Below, one piece after another: positions 1,785 to 52,500 of a stretch of 64,000 bases of DNA. Source of the DNA: the human T2T-CHM13v2.0 reference genome, Homo sapiens; the NCBI RefSeq assembly GCF_009914755.1, contig NC_060941.1. One strand, written 5' to 3'. A program made the translations under genes and the position numbers. The notes beneath the pieces are model-generated. The model had not been told where the DNA came from. It made no database searches and saw only the letters and a list, made by a program, of their open reading frames with translations. Within the stretch, counting starts at the first letter, position 1; every line of letters begins with the position of its first letter.

Positions 1785-2085
1785 TTTTTTTTTTTTTTCT
1801 TTTTGAGGCAGGTTCTCACACTATCCCCAAGGCTGGAGTGCAGTTGGGATCTCAGCTCACTGCAACCTCCGCCTCCCAGGCTCAAGTGATTTTCGTGCCT
1901 CAGCCTCCTGAGTAGCCGGGACTGCAGGCGTGAGCCACCACGCCTGGCTAATTTTTGTATTTTTTAGTAGAGACGGAGTTACACCATGTTGCCCAGGCTG
2001 GTCTCGAACTCCTGAGCTCAGGCAGTCTGCCCGCCTCAGGCTCCCTAAGTGCTAGGATTACAGGCGTGAGCAACCGCTCCCGGCC
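1785..2085 (-). mobile_element. Alu (older, J-like)
   Basis: Poly-T tail, Alu body, TSD TCCCAAAGCTTTA at 1771-1783 and 2086-2098. Confidence 0.93.
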
Positions 2086-2659: not shown

Positions 2660-3190
2660 TAAATGTTATTTGGAAAAAAAAAAAAAAAGATTAATCATCC
2701 ATGGTACAAAATTTAAAAGTTACATAAGTATGGAGTCTCGCGTCTTCCCTGACCCCCACCCCCAGTCATCCAATATATTTTTCCAGAACTAGTCTGATCA
2801 TAACATATATACATATATAATTTTTTTCCTCACAAATGTCAGCATCCCAGACACTGTTCTGCATCATTTTTTTTTACAAATCACATAATGTATCTTGAAG
2901 GTCTTTCCATATCAGTGTCTAGAGAGCAGAGTCTATTTGTTTTTAAGAGCTGCAGACAACTTCAAGTGTGGCCCAACCATAATTTACGTTTCTATGAATT
3001 TAACCGGTGTTATCGTTGGACATTTTGACTGTTTCTGGCCGTTTGTGATGTCCAACAATGATGTAATGATTATCCTTGCAGGGACTTCACTTCGCAGGAG
3101 CAGAAGCCCATTTGCAGGATAAATTCTGAGTTGCGGAACTAGTGATTTACAGGGCAGAGGTGCAGTCTTTGTCTTAATTTCTGAATTCAC
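2660..3190 (-). mobile_element. Old L1M (L1ME-like) 3' fragment
   Basis: Resembles antisense L1ME 3' UTR (catggtacaaaatttaaaag..., ctttccatatcagt..., ggacattttgactgtttc); similar to 61290-61830. Confidence 0.55.
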
Positions 3191-3209
3191 GAATGTTGAA
3201 TGTGATGAA

Positions 3210-3850
3210 TTCGTGGGAAGCCCCGCAGGGAGCCTAAGCAGCTCTCCAGAGGCTGTGGTTGTCACGGATGATGATTGCGGGACCCGCAGACTGAGTCTCC
3301 AAGCGCTCCGCCCCGCCGCGCCCCTCTCCGCGGGTCCCACCGCGGACCCGCCCCTGCGCGCCCCGGGCCAGGAGCCCCTAGCTGCAGGACCAGGCACGTG
3401 CGATTCCACGTGAGCCTCCCGGCCGGCGCGCAGATGGGAAGTGCGCATGCGCCTACCGCCTGGAAAGTAGGTCAGACTCCTCCTCTCACGTGACCTGCTC
3501 CCCTTAGCTACCCTCGGCGCCTCCCCGCCGGGGCGCAGCCGGGATGCGCTCGGCAGCCAACGTGACGGGGCTGGGCGCGGGCGGCTCCGCGAGCGCCCAG
3601 CGCCCGCGAGGATTTGCCGGTTCTCCTCACACCCGAGCGCTCCGCTCAGAAGTCGGGCGGGCAAAAGGGAGCGCCTCGGGAAGTATCTGGGAGCCGGGCT
3701 GGAAATGAATGGGGCCCGGAAGCGAGCTCAAATCGCTGACACCTGGCACCGGGCTGCGTCCACTTTCATGCTTCCTAAGGCAGTTCTGCCTGCAAGAAGG
3801 GAACGCGCATCGCCTTTCAGTAGATCACACCGATCGTTTGCACGTTTGCA
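3210..3850. promoter_or_regulatory. Orphan CpG island: distal enhancer or promoter-like element
   Basis: Dense CpG. CACGTG at 3395, 3407 and 3487; GGAAGT 3437; NRF1 TGCGCATGCGC 3442-3452; RORE AAAGTAGGTCA 3464-3474. No credible associated CDS. Confidence 0.85.
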
Positions 3851-4052
3851 TTCTCAATTTCTGCACTATATAGGGCAACTCAGACATGAAAACAATCTTT
3901 GTAAGAAGAAGTGGAATGCTAATGGTTCCTGGAGTTTTGCAGGAATATTCCACCGGCCCCATTTCTAATCTCCCACTCACTCCCTCCCCAAAGACACTCC
4001 TACTAGAAAGCTTATCGGTAGATTTCTCACCTTCCACAAGAGACTTCAGGGG

Positions 4053-4054
<2 letters not shown>

Positions 4055-4084
<30 letters not shown>
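4055..4084 (+). repeat. (CTG)10 trinucleotide repeat
   Basis: Ten uninterrupted CTG units. Confidence 0.95.
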
Positions 4085-4086
<2 letters not shown>

Positions 4087-4199
4087 GGCTGGAGGGGGTT
4101 GGGAGCAGGGAACGAAGGCAGGTCTGAATTAGCTGAAGCTAAATTCTATATATCAGAAATAATTTTATTTATTGCCCCATTGCTTTCTGATTTTTAACT

Positions 4200-4430
4200 T
4201 GTTGCACAAATGACAGACTCTGCCTCAGTGAGTTGCAATCCAGTGGAGGGCACTAACAGGCAAAATCATGGGTTACAATGCAGTGGGCTATACATGTTTT
4301 AATAGAGGTGTGCCCAGGTGTTATATAAGCACAGTGGTGGGTACCCTGAGTCTTGAAGACTAAGTGGGAGTTAGCTGGCAGAGAAATAAGGCAGAGGGGG
4401 TGGAAAGTGTTCCAAACAAAGGGAATAACT
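4200..4430. mobile_element. L2 fragment
   Basis: L2-type words (gagtcttgaagac...gggagttagc...gttccaaacaaagggaa). Confidence 0.45.
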
Positions 4431-12420: not shown

Positions 12421-12759
12421 CTTTCATCCAAAGATCCTCAACCCCTCTTTCTCTGTCACACTCCATATCCACCCCACAGAAAATCCTGCTTAGGTGTTTG
12501 CGTTTTAAATTTGTGTTAATACTATTATTGTTGTGTGTGTGCTGAGGGCATCTGAAAGTACATTTCAAAATATATCTTGAATCAGACCACTTATCATCTC
12601 AGCTGCTACACCCTAGACCAGGCCGCTTTATTCATCAGCTTCTCTTCCTGCTTCCATGCTTGTGCCTACCCTCCACAGTGCACTTTATATCCAACAGTCA
12701 CAAAATTTCTGACAAATAAATTGTATCACGTGCACAAATCCTTATAATGGTTTCCTATG

Positions 12760-29716: not shown

Positions 29717-30491
29717 GATATAAATTTCTCATTCCTCTTCCCACCCAGACCAAAAAAAAAAAAAAAAATCTAAGCCTAAGTTGATGGCCCAGGGAATCTG
29801 GCACCTGCTCCCCTGCAACCAGCCAGTGCTGCAAGGTCCCCGAAAATCGGCGCGAGCGGCGACGCTAAACACGCGGCGGCGGGGCGAGCGGGCCAGGCGG
29901 GCGGTGCCGCGCGTGGCCCCGCCCCCGCACGCCTATGGGCGCGAGGTGCGGGCCCTGACGTCACTCTTGTCAGGGCCGCGGCACATGGGCGGCCGGATGC
30001 GCTGAGCCCGGCGCTGCGGGGCCGCGGAGCGCTGGGGAGCAGCGGCCGCCGGCGCGGGGAGGGGGGTGGGGTGGGACGGCGCACCGCCTCCGGTGCTGGC
30101 ACTAGGGGCTGGGGTCGGCGCGGTGTCTTCTGCCCTTCTGCAGCCGTCGACATTTTTTTTTCTTTCTTTTTTTCAATTTTGAACATTTTGCAAAACGAGG
30201 GGTTCGAGGCAGGTGAGAGCATCCTGCACGTCGCCGGGGAGCCCGCGGGCACTTGGCGCGCTCTCCTGGGACCGTCTGCACTGGAAACCCGAAAGTTTTT
30301 TTTTAATATATATTTTTATGCAGATGTATTTATAAAGATATAAGTAATTTTTTTCTTCCCTTTTCTCCACCGCCTTGAGAGCGAGTACTTTTGGCAAAGG
30401 ACGGAGGAAAAGCTCAGCAACATTTTAGGGGGCGGTTGTTTCTTTCTTTCTTATTTCTTTTTTTAAGGGGAAAAAATTTGAGTGCATCGCG

Positions 30492-31099: not shown

Positions 31100-31322
31100 G
31101 AACTCACGAGGTGTGAGAGAAGACTCGTTTTCTTCTGGTGAAGGGTAGCTGAGAAAGCGGGGTGGGGGCTGGGGCCGGTGGGGGGAGTGGTCTCTCGGCG
31201 GGAAGCCGTGCACGCCTCCAGCGTTGACACTTTCCCGGTGCACTTTTTCTGGTGGGAGGGGAGAGCGGAGCAGGCTCACGTGTAACCGCGCAGGAGCCTC
31301 CTCTGGCTTGAGCCCTTTCTTG
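31100..31322 (+). other. HLF: Candidate alternative non-coding first exon of HLF (5' end uncertain)
   Basis: Strong donor TG|GTAAGT after 31322 in the 3' part of the CpG island, no ATG in the ~220 nt before it, E-box at 31277. Fits the reported two-promoter architecture of rodent Hlf. Confidence 0.6.
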
Positions 31323-46558: not shown

Positions 46559-49500
46559 TTATAAAAGAGTGAACACAATGCTCCTAAGTTTAAATCAGAT
46601 AAATTCAGTATGAAATCATAGCAATAGCCATTATGTGTTAAAACCAGCATTGTCCTAAACACTGACTGTAAGTAGTTGTAGCAAATCAACTCATATTAGA
46701 AATGATATTGGTCCCTGGAATTTAGTCTGTTCCCAAGAGGACTGAATGTTGTGAATACATTGCCAAAGTATGTTTTCTTTTTTTCTCCATCAGCCCTTCC
46801 ATTCTGACTACAGGCAGCTTAAAAATAAATTTGGGCATATCTCAGTGGCCAAAAACCATGGAGATCAGGATGAAATCATTTTCAAGGCAGAAATAACAGG
46901 CGTTGATAAAGATATTCAGAGAAACACAGTCCTAATAGCATCGGCACGTGATTGTGGGGCCCTTTAGTCACCAAGCTAAATTGAATTTGGAATCAGGGGT
47001 CTACTGAAAAGCCAGGAAACTTTTGAGCAAGTCACTTGAATTCTGAGCCCCCATTTCCTCATCCAGAACATGATGGCCTATTTTGCAGGATTGTCATGCA
47101 AGTTAAATTACATTAAACAAGCTATCAGTAAAAAGGATGTGGGACTGTGCCTACTCGGATTGTCACCCAGTGAGTTTTAATTCGGAGTCCGAATCTGGTA
47201 TTTAAAGGCCACGTTCTAAAATGCACTTGTAGTTAATATCTTTGGAGTCTTGCTTCCAGGTTTTTGAGTTGCTGGACTGGGTCTTTGTAAGCTCCGTGAT
47301 GCTGCTTTGGGAACACAAGAGATCTAATCTGTAGTCCTGGCTATGCTATTAATTGCAAGTATAACCTTAGGTGTTCAGCTTCTCTGGCTTTTACTTCTTC
47401 ATCTGTAAAATGGGAATAATCTACGTCCTTCTAACTTACAAGTATGTCATAATAGAAAACTGACCAAACAGTTTACATCAGTGTCCATTATTATTTCCAT
47501 TGGCTTTTAGGCGGCAAGAGATGGAAAACACGTAGCAACAATTTCAAAGGTAGGCCAGTTCCAAAGAGCACTGAACTTGGAGTCAGCCAATCTAGGTTCT
47601 AAAGCCAGTTTGTCAGCATTAGATGTCTCTGGACAGGACAGGTCACCAAATCTCTCAAAGCCTAATTTTTCTTGTCTATAAAATGTAGGTGCTGTTTCTA
47701 GCTCTACGACTCTGTGTTCAAAGACTACTATGTGCTGGAAGACGACTAACATTCACATTTTGGTGAATGTCTAAAAAAATTTAAAGCCTCTTGGGGGTAA
47801 TGGAGCTGCTCCCAAGCCAAGTAGTAGATGGATTAAGAATCTGACATTCTTCCACTCATAAAGGATGACAGAGTTTAAAAACTAACGCTGAAAAGCAAAA
47901 AACATTTGACACCTTTTGGAATAAAAAAATCAACAATAATCAAGCTAGTTACTTCCTTAAAAAATGGTCTTCATGCCGAATGGAAACCACCAGATTCTCT
48001 CTGGTGTTCAGCATTCCAGAACAACCCTGAAAATAAATTATCTGGCTGGAATCATTGCTCCAACGGTTGGATTTCTTAGTGGTCGTTTACTAGCCAGACA
48101 AAATAATTTTTTTATAAAGAAAAGAAAAAAAAAAGGAAAGCCCACAGAAGGAAACACCCCAGGGCCCACTGCTGGCTCTTTTGATGGCAACTTTTCTAGG
48201 AGGACAGTGGCCAGAGGGGGCCTTTGGCTGCTCCTCTAGGTGGCTGGAGTCAGGTTTGTAGGACCTGCCTGTGATAGTAGGTTTCATCTTGCAACTGGCT
48301 CTGATGGATTAGTAGGTGCCTGAGAAGTCATTTTGAAAGGGTCTGAGGCTCGGTCTGGGCTCAGTGAAGAGTTCTGTGATTAATTAGTGATGTCTGCCCT
48401 TGGCTTGGGTGGGGCAGTACTGGTGCCTGGTGTTTTCTGTCCTGCCAGAGCAGGTTTGGAAGATCCTTTAGTAGTTGTCCTTCTACTGGGCAGCAGATCA
48501 AGGACTCAGGCCGGTGTTGCTTCCGATGTCCTGGAAAAGTGTTTTCTGAGCCTCCAGCACATAATGTTTTACTCTCTGAAGGAGGCTTATTCTGATTAGC
48601 TTAACAGAGGGTATGGAAGAAAGGAAGTCTATTGATTCAGCTCCTTGGTCACGAGACAGGAATTGCAAGGTGGAGGGAAGCTGTAATTCCAACACGTAAG
48701 TCCATGGATACTCCAGTAAAGCACAGGCATAGGTGCCACTGATCCAGCAGAGGCAGCCACAAACCACAGGCCCTGGTAAGCTGCCTGTGGCCAGAGGTCA
48801 TGGCTGCAGATTCCAGGGAAACTGCGTCCTCGGTAGGCAGTCAGCCGTACACTCCATACTTGCGATTCTTGATATTTGAAATCAAAATCAAAGTGCAGCC
48901 ACTTTCTTTAAGGAAGCTTTGGAGAACTTGCCAGTCTGTTTAGGATTGAAGGTGATTCTCAGTTATCCATGCTAAAGGAACAGATAATCTGAAGTTTATT
49001 TCTCCTCAGCTGTGGAACGTGCTTTGCGTTTTTGTGCTGTTGATCTGCTTTCCTGGTAAGGTTTGAACTCTTCAGATTTTTCTTTCTATAAAGAACGGTT
49101 GAGGGGGAGTGTAGTGCTTTTTGCAGCTCCCCCAGTATGTTTCTAACATAGCCAGCCAAATGTCTCTGAGCCCTTCCAGCCTCCTAACTTTAAATCCATG
49201 AACTGCACCAGGGAAATAATCAACCAGTTGCAATTTGTTGAGCACTTACTGTGTGCTCCCTGGGATCCAGGTAACTGTGTGACAAGGACTTGATCCAAGA
49301 GTGTGTTGGGCAATAGGGTGAAGTGGGCTCCAGGTTAAACATTGGCTATAGGGATTTACAAAAGAGTTCACTGAGAGTGGGCCTGACTTCCTCTGCTACT
49401 GCTGTTTCCTGTTGTTTCCAGTAACTGCACTTGAGCTCTGCATACGGTTAACTTTCAATTATCCTGAGGCTGATTAACTGGTTTGCAGATTAACCAAGGT

Positions 49501-52500
49501 GAAGGCTCACCTGGGCCTGGGAGTCGCTCATCAACTCAGCTGCTCCATAATTAGCTGGTGATGGCTGATTGCCTGCCCCATGGTTGGGAAGCCTGGGCAC
49601 TGGGCGACTGCAGGGGAGGGGGACCAAGGGATGACTTCTTCCAGGACCTTCTACTCTCTCCAACCAGAGGTGCCCTCTAGCCCTGTAAACTTCTGCATTC
49701 TCCAGCACAGTTCCTGAGAGGTTCAGAAGTTACCTGGGTCCTGGTGCTCTGCTCCTGCTACCTTTCAGCTCCTGCCCCCAACACCCTGTTCAAATTGGGA
49801 ACAAGTTGACCACAGGGCACAGTGAATTTGAAAGTCCGGAGATTAAGTCATATGTTGAAAGAGGGCCCAGTGAGCAGGGGCCACTAATCCCCTTTCTTCC
49901 TCAACCTAGGAACCTCCTCCCTTCCCAAGATATAGATATATATAGATTGAGACCCTGAGCAATGGATCTCTTTTGAGGCCAGTGGAGACCAAGACCACTG
50001 AAGCAAGGAGTCAGGGACTGCCCACAACAGCAAAGCTCCCCAGAGTCCAGGCCACCCCATGGTGATTGTTTGGGTTCCCTGTGATTGCCTCCCATGGCTG
50101 CCCTCGTTCATAGAGAGTTGACTGCATTTGCCTGGGTCCCTGTGGGGTGAGAGTATGGAAGTATGTGTATTAGTCACACCTTACACCAGACCAGAAGATA
50201 TACAGTTTAACCTAGGAGTCAAGCTCCTGCTATATTTGGAATGGTCTCAGTTTTGAGACGTGGTACCTTGGATCCCAGGTATATCCAAAGTCTTGAGAGT
50301 GTCCATTGAGGACTTTGGTCTGTAGCCACCAAGAAAGAGTAAACATTTGTGCAGGATCATGTTTGATGGGATTCCATGGATTGTTTTCATTTCTTAAGCA
50401 GCATTCCCCTGAGCCTTTGACATGTCTTTCCATCTCTGGCTGTGTTCTCACTTGCATTTGCCAGGCCTGCAATGCCTCTGCCTTGATACAACACAGTGTG
50501 CCAGCAGCTGCAGTCCCTTTTCAGCCAGGGCCATGGGTTTCCTTGGGTCCTTCTCTCTGGCTCACGTTTTCCAGGGCTGTTGGTGTGTACAGTCTAGAGA
50601 TCACATTTTATTAACACAAAGAAATCTGCTTGGGCTGCCTGGCTCTTGCAGTCACGTGGAGAGAAATGTGTTCCTTTGGTCCTTCAGCCTGCAGCACTCT
50701 GTGCAAAATACAGCAGAGAGCTGGGCACTGGGCCAAGCTTACATTTCACTTCGGAACACACTTTCGCATCACTCCTTGGCAGAACATCCACGGTGGTGTC
50801 TATTTGGGGAGTAAGTTAGAGAAGTGTTGTTTGCCTCTTATGAGTGTCGAGAGATAGGACCTTTAGAAAATGTTTTACTTTTGCGCCTGTCTTCATCTTC
50901 TTCGCGGTGCCCAGGTACTGAGGTGATCCAGCTAAATGTGGCAGTGATGCCTGAGAGAAGCCCCTTCCTTCCTCGGGCCACCCTTTTCTCTTGCAAAATC
51001 AGTAAACAGAGCCAGGACTGCCTGGGACAGGGAAACTTAGGCCAAGGTAATAACATCAAAACCAAAGTCCTGGAACTCTTGAGTAAGCTAGTTACCCTCC
51101 CAGATAAAACAACTTTGTTGTCCAAATCTTCTTTCCAAAGATCTAAGACCTTTCTAATGTTGGTCCAAGGCCAGCCATGGAAGGAAGGAACTTCAGCAAG
51201 CCGCCTGGAATGGCAAACACTGTTAAAATAAACAAATGGACCTTTGCCATTTGGTTTTCCCTGACTTGTCTATTTTTATTTCTTTTCTCCCCCCACCCTT
51301 GTACTTTACCTCTCGATAGTACCCCCCTTTCTCCACCCCTACTCCCATTCTCATCTCACTTTTCTCAGGGGCCAAGCTGGCTGTTTTGCCTTCAGTAAAA
51401 CAAATATCTAATTTCAAAAAGAGGAATTAGGAGAAAGAGGTGGTATAATTCATTTCTTGGGGTAATCTCGCTTCCCTCAGCTCCTCTATTGTCTGTTCTT
51501 GTAGGTGGCCACCTGAAGCTTGACTTGCTTTTGAAAATAAAGTTGGTTTTGGAATTTTAAACCTTCCTTAGGAAAGACTTGAATGGTTAGAAAACAAAGA
51601 TTTATTGGAATAATAATGACGTTTCTTTTCTCAATGAAATAGACCCCTCTCATAACAAACGGTTGAAAATAAACTCTTTTTCCCCATCACACCAAGCCAT
51701 AAATTCCATAAGGATTTCCCAGCGCCAAGCCTTATTCAGAGTCTTATATTTACTGCTTTGGAATGTTACTTTTGCCATCAGTATCATCCAGCCAAGCAAC
51801 AACCAATCAAGACTTACAGAAACTTTTCCAGCTAGATGCATGTGCCAGGCTGCTTCTTCCTTCCATGATGGAAGGCCTCCCTTGTCATAGAGGATGCCCA
51901 AAATCTCAGGGACTGGGATACAGCCTCCTGCCAGTCTGTGGGTACAGTCTTTGCTTACTCTGCAGAAGGGAGGTGACAGAAACCCATTCCACCTGTCTCA
52001 GAAACCTGCTGGTAATTAACTTTAAAAATAATGCCAAGTTCTCACGTGGCTGGTAGATGCATTAGCTCAATCAGGGGGGAGGCAGGGGAGAAGCATGCTG
52101 CTTCAAAGAGTAATACTGTTGCAATCACATTAGTCATTCCAGGGGAGGTTAGATAAGGTTATTGAAAAGGTGAAGTCACCCTGTACATTGAAAGAGGTCT
52201 TCTGAAAGTGTTGAGAAATAGTTGAAGTTCAGAAGTTTTATTTGGAGCTTTGCTCCCCCTTCCCCTTGTAAATAAGACCAGTATTTTTTAAAAGCCACAT
52301 TTTCTTTGTTTGATCGATGAACACTCTCATAGTTGATGATTGAGAGTCATCTACAGCCAGTATCAAGGGTCAGTTCTGCATTACTCGTGTAGATTATCTC
52401 TTTGGTATACTAGCCATGGTCAATGTGTAAGCCCTGGCCAGTTGCCACCCAGCATAACAACACCATAAGGCATCTACCCCCTGCCTGCACTTGGGAAGTG

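What the first reader, a model, noticed from the sequence alone, without database searches (positions are those of the whole stretch)
3395..3564. Compact circadian logic module in an orphan CpG island 26.5 kb upstream of HLF: tandem E-boxes, NRF1/ETS, perfect RORE and a third E-box
Seen: CACGTG (3395-3400), a 6-bp spacer, CACGTG (3407-3412); GGAAGT overlapping TGCGCATGCGC (3437-3452); AAAGTAGGTCA (3464-3474), a perfect WAWNTRGGTCA match; TCACGTGAC (3486-3494); AACGTG (3559-3564). Established: tandem E-boxes 6-7 bp apart mark strong cooperative CLOCK:BMAL1 sites, ROREs bind REV-ERB/ROR (from memory the same 11-mer is in the Bmal1 promoter), TCACGTGA suits BHLHE40/41, USF and TFE factors, and HLF is a clock output gene. 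Inference: a distal element integrating the BMAL1 arm and the ROR/REV-ERB arm of the clock to set HLF phase and amplitude, possibly also firing an unannotated eRNA/lncRNA. Whether it is already described cannot be checked here.
Basis: partly seen in the sequence, partly recalled or inferred. Interest (0 to 1): 0.8.

Follow-up and report, generated by a model that had tools for sequence, protein, structure and literature searches.

The report
Known clock-bound element upstream of HLF

Summary
Every motif is at the stated coordinates, in a 700-bp CpG island at 3151-3850. The cluster far exceeds local shuffles: a tandem CACGTG pair arose in 0 of 5000. Tandem E-box plus RORE within 30-60 bp occurs once in this 3.1-Gb genome.

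The element is not new. Mouse tables list a CpG-island site about 27 kb upstream of Hlf:
- 10th row of the BMAL1 liver table, flagged E1-E2, conservation 0.985, peak at ZT6.
- CLOCK:BMAL1 peak P0031.
- BMAL1 peak in muscle and in a liver/cortex study.
- 3rd strongest REV-ERBalpha peak in brain.

The mouse motif coordinates reproduce the human layout. Both have a 6-bp spacer with identical flanks. The third E-box is an identical 10-mer, 93 bp from the first in mouse and 92 bp in human.

The RORE 11-mer equals the proximal BMAL1-promoter RORE.

Still unshown: occupancy in human, RORE conservation and function, NRF1/ETS use, contact with HLF, any transcript from the island.

Verdict: observation confirmed, interpretation partly supported, already known from datasets, never dissected.

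The parts
3151..3850 (.). CpG island with no RefSeq gene: 700 bp, GC 0.65, CpG o/e 0.93, 69 CpG. Contains the RefSeq 'silencer' 3210-3679.
   Evidence: Single-copy in the genome. The mouse counterpart is annotated 'Intergenic / CpG' by HOMER. No Rfam family. No Pfam domain in 3 ORFs tested.
3395..3412 (+). Tandem E-box of the E1-E2 type, here two perfect sites: CACGTG, cgattc, CACGTG, with a 6-bp spacer.
   Evidence: 0 of 5000 island shuffles give such a pair. Mouse has CACGTGGA and CACGTGCC 12 bp apart start to start, with the same flanks on the other strand. The mouse site is flagged #E1-E2 = 1 and 2 E1-E2.
3437..3442 (+). GGAAGT, an ETS-like core.
   Evidence: At least 2 copies in the island in 68 of 5000 shuffles. 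No binding or conservation data seen.
3443..3452 (.). GCGCATGCGC, a perfect NRF1-type palindrome.
   Evidence: only one in the window. 18 of 5000 island shuffles. No binding or conservation data seen.
3464..3474 (+). RORE / RevRE monomer site AAAGTAGGTCA.
   Evidence: only match in the window. The 11-mer is identical to the proximal RORE of the BMAL1 promoter. A REV-ERBalpha ChIP-seq peak lies at the mouse locus. Conservation of the RORE itself is not testable here.
3486..3496 (.). Third E-box, TCACGTGACC, with palindromic flanks. An AGGTCA half-site on the minus strand (3491-3496) overlaps it.
   Evidence: Mouse has the identical 10-mer GGTCACGTGA on its + strand, 93 bp from E1 against 92 bp in human. 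HOMER scored it as a Bhlhe40-type motif.
3559..3567 (+). AACGTG E'-box-like hexamer overlapping a TGACG half-CRE.
   Evidence: Not above chance: 363 of 5000 shuffles. A weak part of the finding.
3308..3660 (.). Four GC boxes (Sp1 type): CCGCCC at 3308 and 3348, GGGCGG at 3579 and 3655.
   Evidence: An Sp1 motif is reported as enriched at BMAL1 sites (Rey 2011, passages).

Best explanation
Window 3395-3564 (T2T chr17:56,113,395-56,113,564) is the human counterpart of the mouse 'Hlf -27 kb' CpG-island site. That site is among the most strongly and rhythmically occupied CLOCK:BMAL1 sites in the mouse genome.

Proposed mechanism:
1. Two CLOCK:BMAL1 heterodimers bind cooperatively to the tandem E-box with its 6-bp spacer. 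A further dimer binds the third E-box 92 bp downstream. Occupancy peaks around ZT6. This is shown for the mouse site and for E1-E2 elements in general, and inferred for human.
2. The unmethylated island, with GC boxes and NRF1/ETS motifs, keeps the CpG-containing E-boxes accessible in many tissues. This is inferred.
3. The element acts on the HLF promoter 26.5 kb downstream as a distal, promoter-like enhancer. This is inferred from proximity and from HLF being a clock output gene. It has not been demonstrated.
4. REV-ERBalpha also occupies the site in mouse. It may do so through the BMAL1-type RORE that lies between the E-boxes. That would add daytime repression and help place Hlf mRNA later (ZT12.6) than Dbp (ZT9.05). 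This is inferred and is the weakest step.
For: Sequence:
- Motifs are exact, lie in a CpG island, exceed local chance, and the region is single-copy.
- The composite of tandem E-box plus RORE is unique in the genome.

Mouse occupancy:
- Rey 2011, PMC3043000, supplement file 1 part 1. The row is chr11:90279481-90279531, -27275 from Hlf, #E1-E2 = 1, conservation 0.985. Tags at ZT2 to ZT22 are 122, 212, 153, 64, 23, 84. It is the 10th row of a table of 2,049 sites ordered by tag number.
- Trott & Menet 2018, PMC5771620, supplement file 1. CLOCKBMAL1_P0031 is at chr11:90417817-90418426.
- Dyar 2018, PMC6105032, S2 Data sheet BMAL1_E-boxes. A muscle BMAL1 peak at chr11:90417912-90418415 is annotated 'Intergenic / CpG', -27247 from Hlf.
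- PNAS 2025, PMC12685114, supplementary tables. A BMAL1 region at chr11:90417438-90418814 has 8 E-boxes and 2 E1-E2. It is labelled 'Distal Intergenic' and 'dELS,CTCF-bound', and one sheet classes it 'Circadian driven'.
- Vanderheyden 2021, PMC8162199, Table 1. REV-ERBalpha ChIP-seq in the VTA: the peak at -27206 from Hlf is 3rd of the top 20.

Orthology from the published mouse motif coordinates:
- Two CACGTG lie 12 bp apart start to start. Their flanks read GGCACGTG and TCCACGTG on the gene strand, as in human.
- The third E-box is the identical 10-mer, 93 bp from the first in mouse against 92 bp in human.
- Distance to the TSS is 27.2 kb in mouse against 26.5 kb in human.

Mechanism (Rey 2011 passages): E1-E2 sites with 6-7 bp spacers are bound by two heterodimers cooperatively and transactivate more strongly. 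An E1-E1 version is as active as wild type.

RORE: the 11-mer is identical to the BMAL1-promoter RORE used as an EMSA probe.

General pattern: BMAL1 peaks shared by three tissues are enriched for E-box, RORE and D-box motifs (Beytebiere 2019 passage).

Phases: mRNA phase is 12.57 for Hlf, 9.05 for Dbp, 11.4 for Tef.
Against: - I saw no human ChIP, CAGE or contact data. The tools hold no mammalian genome other than this one, so orthology rests on published motif coordinates, not on an alignment.
- No paper I found shows contact with, or an effect on, HLF. Trott & Menet left the peak unassigned as 'intergenic-10kbmore'. The HLF enhancers perturbed by CRISPR in kidney cancer lie in a view that starts only about 7 kb upstream of the gene (the TSS position is recalled).
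- RefSeq labels 3210-3679 a silencer. That shows no activating activity in that assay. The source assay is not given to me.
- The REV-ERBalpha top-20 list looks like a BMAL1 list. 9 of 20 rows match a BMAL1 row within 100 bp of distance to TSS, with two gene aliases from my recall. REV-ERB may therefore be there by co-occupancy rather than through the RORE. Beytebiere 2019 reports lower REV-ERB binding at common BMAL1 peaks despite RORE enrichment.
- I did not read the column headers of the 2025 tables. Some statistics in those rows are not significant (for example 0.145), and I cannot say what they measure.
- USF, MAX-family, TFE and BHLHE40 proteins bind the same CACGTG sites (established knowledge).
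Confidence: 0.7

Rival explanations
1. The island is a generic CpG-island promoter of an unannotated non-coding transcript. Its E-boxes serve mainly USF, MAX-family, TFE or BHLHE40 factors. Clock-factor occupancy is real but has little effect on HLF.
For: The motif set (NRF1 palindrome, ETS core, GC boxes, CACGTG) is typical of CpG-island promoters (established knowledge; motifs). The third E-box, TCACGTGACC, has the flanks preferred by USF, TFE and BHLHE40, and HOMER scored it as Bhlhe40. ATAC-STARR 'silent' regions are about 75% promoters, if that is the source of the RefSeq label, which is my inference.
Against: RefSeq lists no transcript here (hub table). In 2011 Hlf was the nearest feature in the mouse table, which also lists lincRNAs and processed transcripts. 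The mouse cCRE class given is distal enhancer-like, not promoter-like. There is no splice-donor consensus GGTRAGT on either strand of the island. No RNA family or protein domain was found. Rank-10 rhythmic BMAL1 occupancy beside a clock output gene is unlikely to be idle.
Confidence: 0.15
2. The RORE arm is not functional. REV-ERBalpha signal at the site reflects co-occupancy, tethering or a highly ChIP-able clock hot-spot, and the AAAGTAGGTCA is a chance match.
For: One RORE match per 64 kb is what chance gives (1 against 1.91 expected). The REV-ERBalpha top-20 list largely repeats strong BMAL1 sites. The ChIP-seq list as described carries no knockout control. REV-ERB binding is reported as lower at common BMAL1 peaks despite RORE enrichment. 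Conservation of the RORE could not be checked.
Against: Within the island a RORE arises in only 3 of 5000 shuffles. The 11-mer, and by direct comparison of the strings the flanking G on each side, equals the proven BMAL1 RORE. It sits 13 bp before the third E-box, inside a block whose E-box spacing is conserved to 1 bp between human and mouse. The REV-ERBalpha peak is the third strongest in that dataset.
Confidence: 0.4
3. In most human cell types the island is a poised or repressive element (bivalent CpG island or silencer) rather than an activator, as the RefSeq label says.
For: RefSeq silencer 3210-3679 (hub table). ATAC-STARR silent regions are enriched for H3K27me3 with H3K4me3 and for SP/KLF motifs. 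BHLHE40/41 and REV-ERB are repressors that fit the motifs (established knowledge).
Against: The source and cell type of the label are unknown to me. The authors of the likely source say such calls need validation and mostly mark promoters. This reading is compatible with clock-driven activation in tissues that express HLF, so it is not a true alternative.
Confidence: 0.1

Closest known systems
E1-E2 tandem E-box elements of core clock and PAR-bZIP genes (Dbp promoter and intron 2, Per2, Nr1d1 including its -8 kb site, Tef promoter)
   Same: A canonical CACGTG is paired with a second E-box 6-7 bp away. In mouse these sites show very strong, rhythmic BMAL1 occupancy peaking near ZT6 and high conservation. 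The human TEF island shows a like arrangement, GCACGTGCG followed by N6 and CTCGTG, plus CTCCACGTGACC.
   Different: Both boxes here are perfect CACGTG (E1-E1). The site lies 26.5 kb from the gene in an island with no annotated gene, not at a promoter or intron. There is no alignable DNA similarity to the TEF or DBP regulatory DNA: the best BLAST E is 0.004 for a 69-bp GC-rich stretch.
BMAL1 (ARNTL) promoter RORE pair
   Same: The 11-mer AAAGTAGGTCA is identical, and a flanking G on each side is shared. The BMAL1 copy is a published REV-ERB/ROR probe.
   Different: BMAL1 has two ROREs 25 bp apart and no E-box logic. Here a single RORE sits between E-boxes. A second AGGTCA (3491-3496, minus strand) lacks the A/T-rich extension.
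Combinatorial phase control at Cry1 (E-box and D-box promoter plus intronic RORE)
   Same: Day-time and night-time elements are combined to delay the phase of a CLOCK:BMAL1 target. The model is described in Trott & Menet 2018 (passage).
   Different: At Cry1 the elements are separate and were tested functionally (recalled). Here the E-boxes and the RORE lie within 100 bp and nothing has been tested.

Membership tests
E1-E2 CLOCK:BMAL1 response element | Canonical E-box CACGTG (E1) | tested here: met
   3395-3400 and 3407-3412.
E1-E2 CLOCK:BMAL1 response element | Second E-box or E-box-like site 6-7 bp from the first | tested here: met
   6-bp spacer cgattc. 0 of 5000 island shuffles. Spacer rule from Rey 2011.
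E1-E2 CLOCK:BMAL1 response element | Rhythmic BMAL1/CLOCK occupancy in vivo, peak ZT4-8 | tested here: inconclusive
   Met for the mouse counterpart in four published datasets. No human data could be examined.
E1-E2 CLOCK:BMAL1 response element | Evolutionary conservation of the tandem | tested here: met
   Human and mouse have the same spacing and flanks, from published mouse motif coordinates. PhastCons-based score 0.985 in Rey's table. No alignment of my own was possible.
E1-E2 CLOCK:BMAL1 response element | Cooperative binding of two heterodimers and spacing-dependent transactivation at this site | not testable with these tools
   Shown for Dbp and Per2 sites only.
RORE / RevRE (REV-ERB and ROR monomer site) | A/T-rich 5' extension plus RGGTCA (WAWNTRGGTCA) | tested here: met
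   AAAGTAGGTCA 3464-3474. Identical to the BMAL1 RORE.
RORE / RevRE (REV-ERB and ROR monomer site) | REV-ERB or ROR occupancy that depends on the site | tested here: inconclusive
   A REV-ERBalpha peak lies at the mouse locus, but the list resembles a BMAL1 list and no site-level or knockout control was seen.
RORE / RevRE (REV-ERB and ROR monomer site) | Conservation of the RORE in other mammals | not testable with these tools
   No mouse sequence is available. The held part of Dyar's S2 Data lists only E-box-type motifs, and the file is cut.
CpG-island promoter (NRF1/ETS type) | CpG island criteria | tested here: met
   GC 0.65, o/e 0.93, 700 bp.
CpG-island promoter (NRF1/ETS type) | A transcription start site or transcript | tested here: not met
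   No RefSeq transcript (hub table). No Rfam or Pfam signal. No GGTRAGT donor in the island. The mouse cCRE class is dELS. CAGE or PRO-seq data were not available, so an unstable RNA is not excluded.
Transcriptional silencer (RefSeq functional element) | Repression of a reporter or of the target gene | not tested
   I have only the label from the hub table. The likely assay type calls mostly promoters silent.

The most novel reading that the evidence does not exclude
The island is a self-contained phase-setting module. A BMAL1-type RORE lies between a cooperative E1-E1 tandem and a third E-box. This lets REV-ERB/ROR gate CLOCK:BMAL1 output within 100 bp, which delays HLF by about 3.5 h relative to DBP. 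The module reaches the HLF promoter through a CTCF-anchored loop. Both mouse elements are labelled CTCF-bound, and convergent CTCF-like motifs lie at 4240 (+) and 30255 (-). The island may also fire an unannotated clock-driven RNA.
Probability: 0.3. Interest if true: 0.5.

Novelty: already known. Interest (0 to 1): 0.3.

Why it matters
HLF is one of three PAR-bZIP clock output factors and also marks blood stem cells. Its strongest clock-factor site lies 26.5 kb away in an island with no annotated gene, and studies that assign peaks by distance drop it.

The finding correctly read this site from sequence alone. The practical value is modest but real. The human coordinates, the motif map and the human-mouse correspondence give a compact natural test-bed. 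It can test how E-box and RORE inputs combine to set phase, and whether a distal CpG island can drive a clock output gene. It does not reveal a new kind of element.

Tried and rejected
- RNA gene in the island: the only Rfam match there is a bacterial sRNA model at E 0.12, taken as chance.
- Coding gene: 7 ORFs of 40 aa or more overlap 3100-4400. The 3 longest have no Pfam match. I did not run database searches on them.
- Repeat or duplication: the region is single-copy.
- Ancient paralogy with TEF or DBP regulatory DNA. I located TEF and DBP with the HLF exon-2 protein and fetched 30 kb and 16 kb. I found only weak GC-rich matches (best E 0.004), so I reject homology at the DNA level. Motif-level likeness remains.
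- D-box TTAYGTAA in window 1-31000: none.
- Contact evidence: searches for Hlf with Hi-C, BMAL1, enhancer and circadian gave 5 papers. The two I opened for this mention HLF only in general text or references.
- Explicit descriptions: 'upstream of Hlf' with BMAL1 gave 0 papers. HLF with 'orphan CpG island' and circadian gave 0. Six phrase variants gave 11 papers, none on this site.
- The kidney-cancer HLF enhancers lie elsewhere.
- ATAC-STARR with silencers and BHLHE40 gave only a review.
- Paquet 2008 shows an E1-E2 site for human HLF in a figure I could not see. Its scan was limited to 2 kb around transcription units, so it is probably another site.
- Supplements I could not see: Rey's figure S2 (PDF), Dyar's S1 Table (too large) and the cut part of S2 Data. 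These may hold REV-ERBalpha peaks or RORE hits at this site.

Full report
**1. What is there**

I read 2900-4100.
- CACGTG at 3395-3400 and 3407-3412, with the 6-bp spacer cgattc.
- GGAAGT at 3437-3442, running into TGCGCATGCGC at 3442-3452.
- AAAGTAGGTCA at 3464-3474, a full match to WAWNTRGGTCA.
- TCACGTGAC at 3486-3494.
- AACGTG at 3559-3564.

The motifs sit in a CpG island at 3151-3850 (700 bp, GC 0.65, CpG o/e 0.93, 69 CpG). The only other islands in the window are at the HLF promoter and first intron, plus one short one. The cluster centre is 26.5 kb before the HLF start at 29963. The 401 bp at 3300-3700 occur once in the 3.12-Gb assembly, so this is not a repeat or a duplicated promoter.

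**2. Is it more than chance?**

Window level, 100 shuffles each:
- CACGTG occurs 14 times against 2.88 expected; 0 of 100 shuffles reach 14.
- The NRF1 palindrome occurs once against 0.17; 16 of 100.
- The RORE pattern occurs once against 1.91; 83 of 100. The RORE is unremarkable by number. Only its position is notable.

Island level, 5000 dinucleotide shuffles of 3201-3800:
- Three CACGTG: 0 of 5000.
- Strict tandem pair: 0 of 5000.
- RORE: 3 of 5000.
- GCGCATGCGC: 18 of 5000.
- TCACGTGA: 11 of 5000.
- Two GGAAGT: 68 of 5000.
- CACGTT/AACGTG: 363 of 5000. The AACGTG at 3559 carries no weight.

Genome level:
- Perfect tandem E-boxes with a 6-7 bp spacer have 206 places, against 704 for the reversed control. 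Many of the 50 places listed are TG/TA simple sequence.
- Adding a third CACGTG 50-80 bp on leaves 37 strand matches, mostly simple repeats.
- Tandem E-box plus RORE 30-60 bp on occurs once, here, with control 0.

These patterns were defined after seeing the sequence. NRF1, ETS and E-box motifs are common in CpG-island promoters (established knowledge). The statistics therefore say the cluster is not random sequence. They do not say which factor uses it.

**3. What it is: published mouse data**

The tools hold no mouse genome, so I searched papers and their tables.

- Rey et al. 2011 (PMC3043000; passages, supplement file 1 part 1). This study reports 2,049 BMAL1 sites in mouse liver. The 10th row of the table is chr11:90279481-90279531, -27275 from Hlf, with #E1-E2 = 1 and conservation 0.985. 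Tags from ZT2 to ZT22 are 122, 212, 153, 64, 23, 84. It sits between Gm129 and Per2 in the list. The figure S2 legend speaks of three BMAL1 sites at Hlf.
- Trott & Menet 2018 (PMC5771620; supplement file 1). It lists CLOCKBMAL1_P0031 at chr11:90417817-90418426, labelled '9_Intergenic, intergenic-10kbmore, Hlf'. The peaks come from Koike 2012 according to the legends. I did not verify that the number is a rank.
- Dyar et al. 2018 (PMC6105032; S2 Data sheet 'BMAL1_E-boxes'). It lists a skeletal-muscle BMAL1 peak at chr11:90417912-90418415, summit 90418134, annotated 'Intergenic / CpG', -27247 from Hlf.
- A 2025 PNAS study (PMC12685114; tables). It lists a BMAL1 region at chr11:90417438-90418814 with 8 E-boxes and 2 E1-E2 motifs. 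The 400-bp windows are labelled 'Distal Intergenic' and 'dELS,CTCF-bound', and one sheet classes the site 'Circadian driven (C_A)'. I did not read the column headers, so I use only these labels.
- Vanderheyden et al. 2021 (PMC8162199; Table 1). It lists a REV-ERBalpha ChIP-seq peak in the ventral tegmental area at -27206 from Hlf, third of the top 20.

**4. Is the mouse site the same element?**

Dyar's sheet gives motif strings and coordinates on the mouse + strand. Hlf is on the other strand.
- CACGTGGA starts at 90418191 and CACGTGCC at 90418203. That is 12 bp start to start, hence a 6-bp spacer.
- GGTCACGTGA starts at 90418107.

Read on the gene strand, the tandem is GGCACGTG, then four bases that the table does not give, then TCCACGTG. 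The human sequence reads GGCACGTG-cgat-TCCACGTG. The third box is TCACGTGACC, identical to human 3486-3495.

The first-to-third E-box distance is 93 bp in mouse and 92 bp in human. The distance to the TSS is 27.2 kb against 26.5 kb. Both are CpG islands.

I take this as strong evidence of orthology and of motif-level conservation of the three E-boxes. It is not an alignment. It says nothing about the RORE, NRF1 or ETS motifs.

**5. The RORE**

A pattern search of the genome found AAAGTAGGTTA-N25-AAAGTAGGTCA at C11:13370507-13370553. That string is identical to the published Bmal1 promoter fragment -88 to -22 (Onishi & Kawano 2012, PMC3479213, passage). It contains the human BMAL1 RORE EMSA probe of Crumbley & Burris 2011 (PMC3066191). 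The recollection is correct.

Whether REV-ERB uses this RORE is open.
- 9 of the 20 top REV-ERBalpha rows match a strong BMAL1 row within 100 bp of distance to TSS. Two gene aliases in that comparison are from my recall.
- The ChIP-seq list is described without a knockout control.
- Beytebiere 2019 notes RORE enrichment but lower REV-ERB binding at BMAL1 peaks common to three tissues.

**6. How it most likely works**

Shown:
- The motif anatomy.
- Strong, rhythmic BMAL1/CLOCK occupancy of the mouse counterpart in liver, and occupancy in muscle and in a liver/cortex set.
- REV-ERBalpha signal at the mouse counterpart.
- For E1-E2 elements in general, cooperative binding of two heterodimers at 6-7 bp spacing, with an E1-E1 version as active as wild type.

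Inferred:
- The human site is occupied in the same way.
- It acts on HLF.
- The island state keeps the CpG-containing E-boxes open.
- REV-ERB at the RORE delays HLF. In Rey's table the mRNA phase is 12.57 for Hlf, 9.05 for Dbp and 11.4 for Tef.

The link to HLF rests on proximity alone in every paper I saw.

**7. Rivals**

- A generic island promoter for an unannotated RNA used mainly by USF, MAX-family, TFE or BHLHE40 factors. Against it: no RefSeq transcript, the dELS class in mouse, no donor consensus, and no RNA family or protein domain.
- A non-functional RORE, discussed in section 5.
- A poised or repressive island, as the RefSeq 'silencer' label at 3210-3679 suggests. I do not know the source of that label. 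If it is ATAC-STARR-seq, which is my inference, about 75% of such 'silent' regions are promoters, often bivalent, and the authors ask for validation. This reading can coexist with clock activation in tissues that express HLF.

**8. Comparison with known systems**

The element works like the E1-E2 elements of Dbp, Per2, Nr1d1 and Tef. It meets the sequence criteria for that class. It differs in three ways: both boxes are perfect, it lies 26.5 kb from the gene, and it sits in an island with no annotated gene.

I tested for ancient paralogy with TEF and DBP regulatory DNA and found none. The TEF island does carry similar E-box flanks.

The RORE equals one of the BMAL1 pair but stands alone.

**9. 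Novelty**

The site, its BMAL1/CLOCK and REV-ERBalpha occupancy, its E1-E2 content and its conservation have been in print since 2011, mainly in tables. My searches found no paper that dissects it or names it in the text. The library lacks most subscription journals, and some supplements could not be read.

I rate it already known, with interest 0.3. The motif-level human map and the E-box/RORE arrangement make a useful, testable model but not a new kind of element.

Noticed in passing
window 50653-50658 (inside RefSeq enhancer 49100-51536): A CACGTG lies at +20.7 kb in HLF intron sequence. Mouse tables list a CLOCK:BMAL1 peak in an Hlf intron about 21 kb from the TSS (P0144 at chr11:90369677-90370056; region 90369518-90370131). 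It is probably the human counterpart.
   Followed up: partly
window 31277-31282: A CACGTG (gctCACGTGtaacc) lies at +1.3 kb, inside the alternative exon 31229-31322 and the intron-1 CpG island. A mouse BMAL1 region at chr11:90389283-90389838 lies at a similar offset from the Hlf TSS.
   Followed up: no
whole window: CACGTG occurs 14 times against 2.9 expected. Only one copy (40982) lies in a masked repeat. The whole HLF locus looks E-box rich, with two more copies at 12727 and 13000 (-17 kb).
   Followed up: partly
window 4240-4254 (+) and 30255-30269 (-): Two CTCF-like motifs (1 and 2 mismatches) lie in convergent orientation. One is just past the island and one is in the HLF promoter island. 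The mouse table labels both elements 'CTCF-bound'. Window-wide the motif is not enriched: 9 against 5.94 expected, and 14 of 100 shuffles reach 9.
   Followed up: partly
window 29956-29963: A full palindromic CRE, TGACGTCA, ends exactly at the annotated HLF start (29963). There is no canonical E-box in 29800-30000, only CACCTG and CACATG, although mouse tables list a BMAL1 site at -44.
   Followed up: no
window 4054-4083: A (GCT)10 microsatellite lies 200 bp past the island. It reads as a run of 10 alanines in a 103-aa ORF (3886-4197) that has no Pfam match.
   Followed up: partly
window 3866-3875: A TATA-like string, ctatataggg, lies just past the island, 12 bp before the ATG of that ORF. There is no evidence that it is used.
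   Followed up: no
window 2000-2084 (-): A partial match to metazoan SRP RNA (28 bits, below the gathering score) falls inside the masked stretch 1822-2097. It is most likely an Alu fragment.
   Followed up: no
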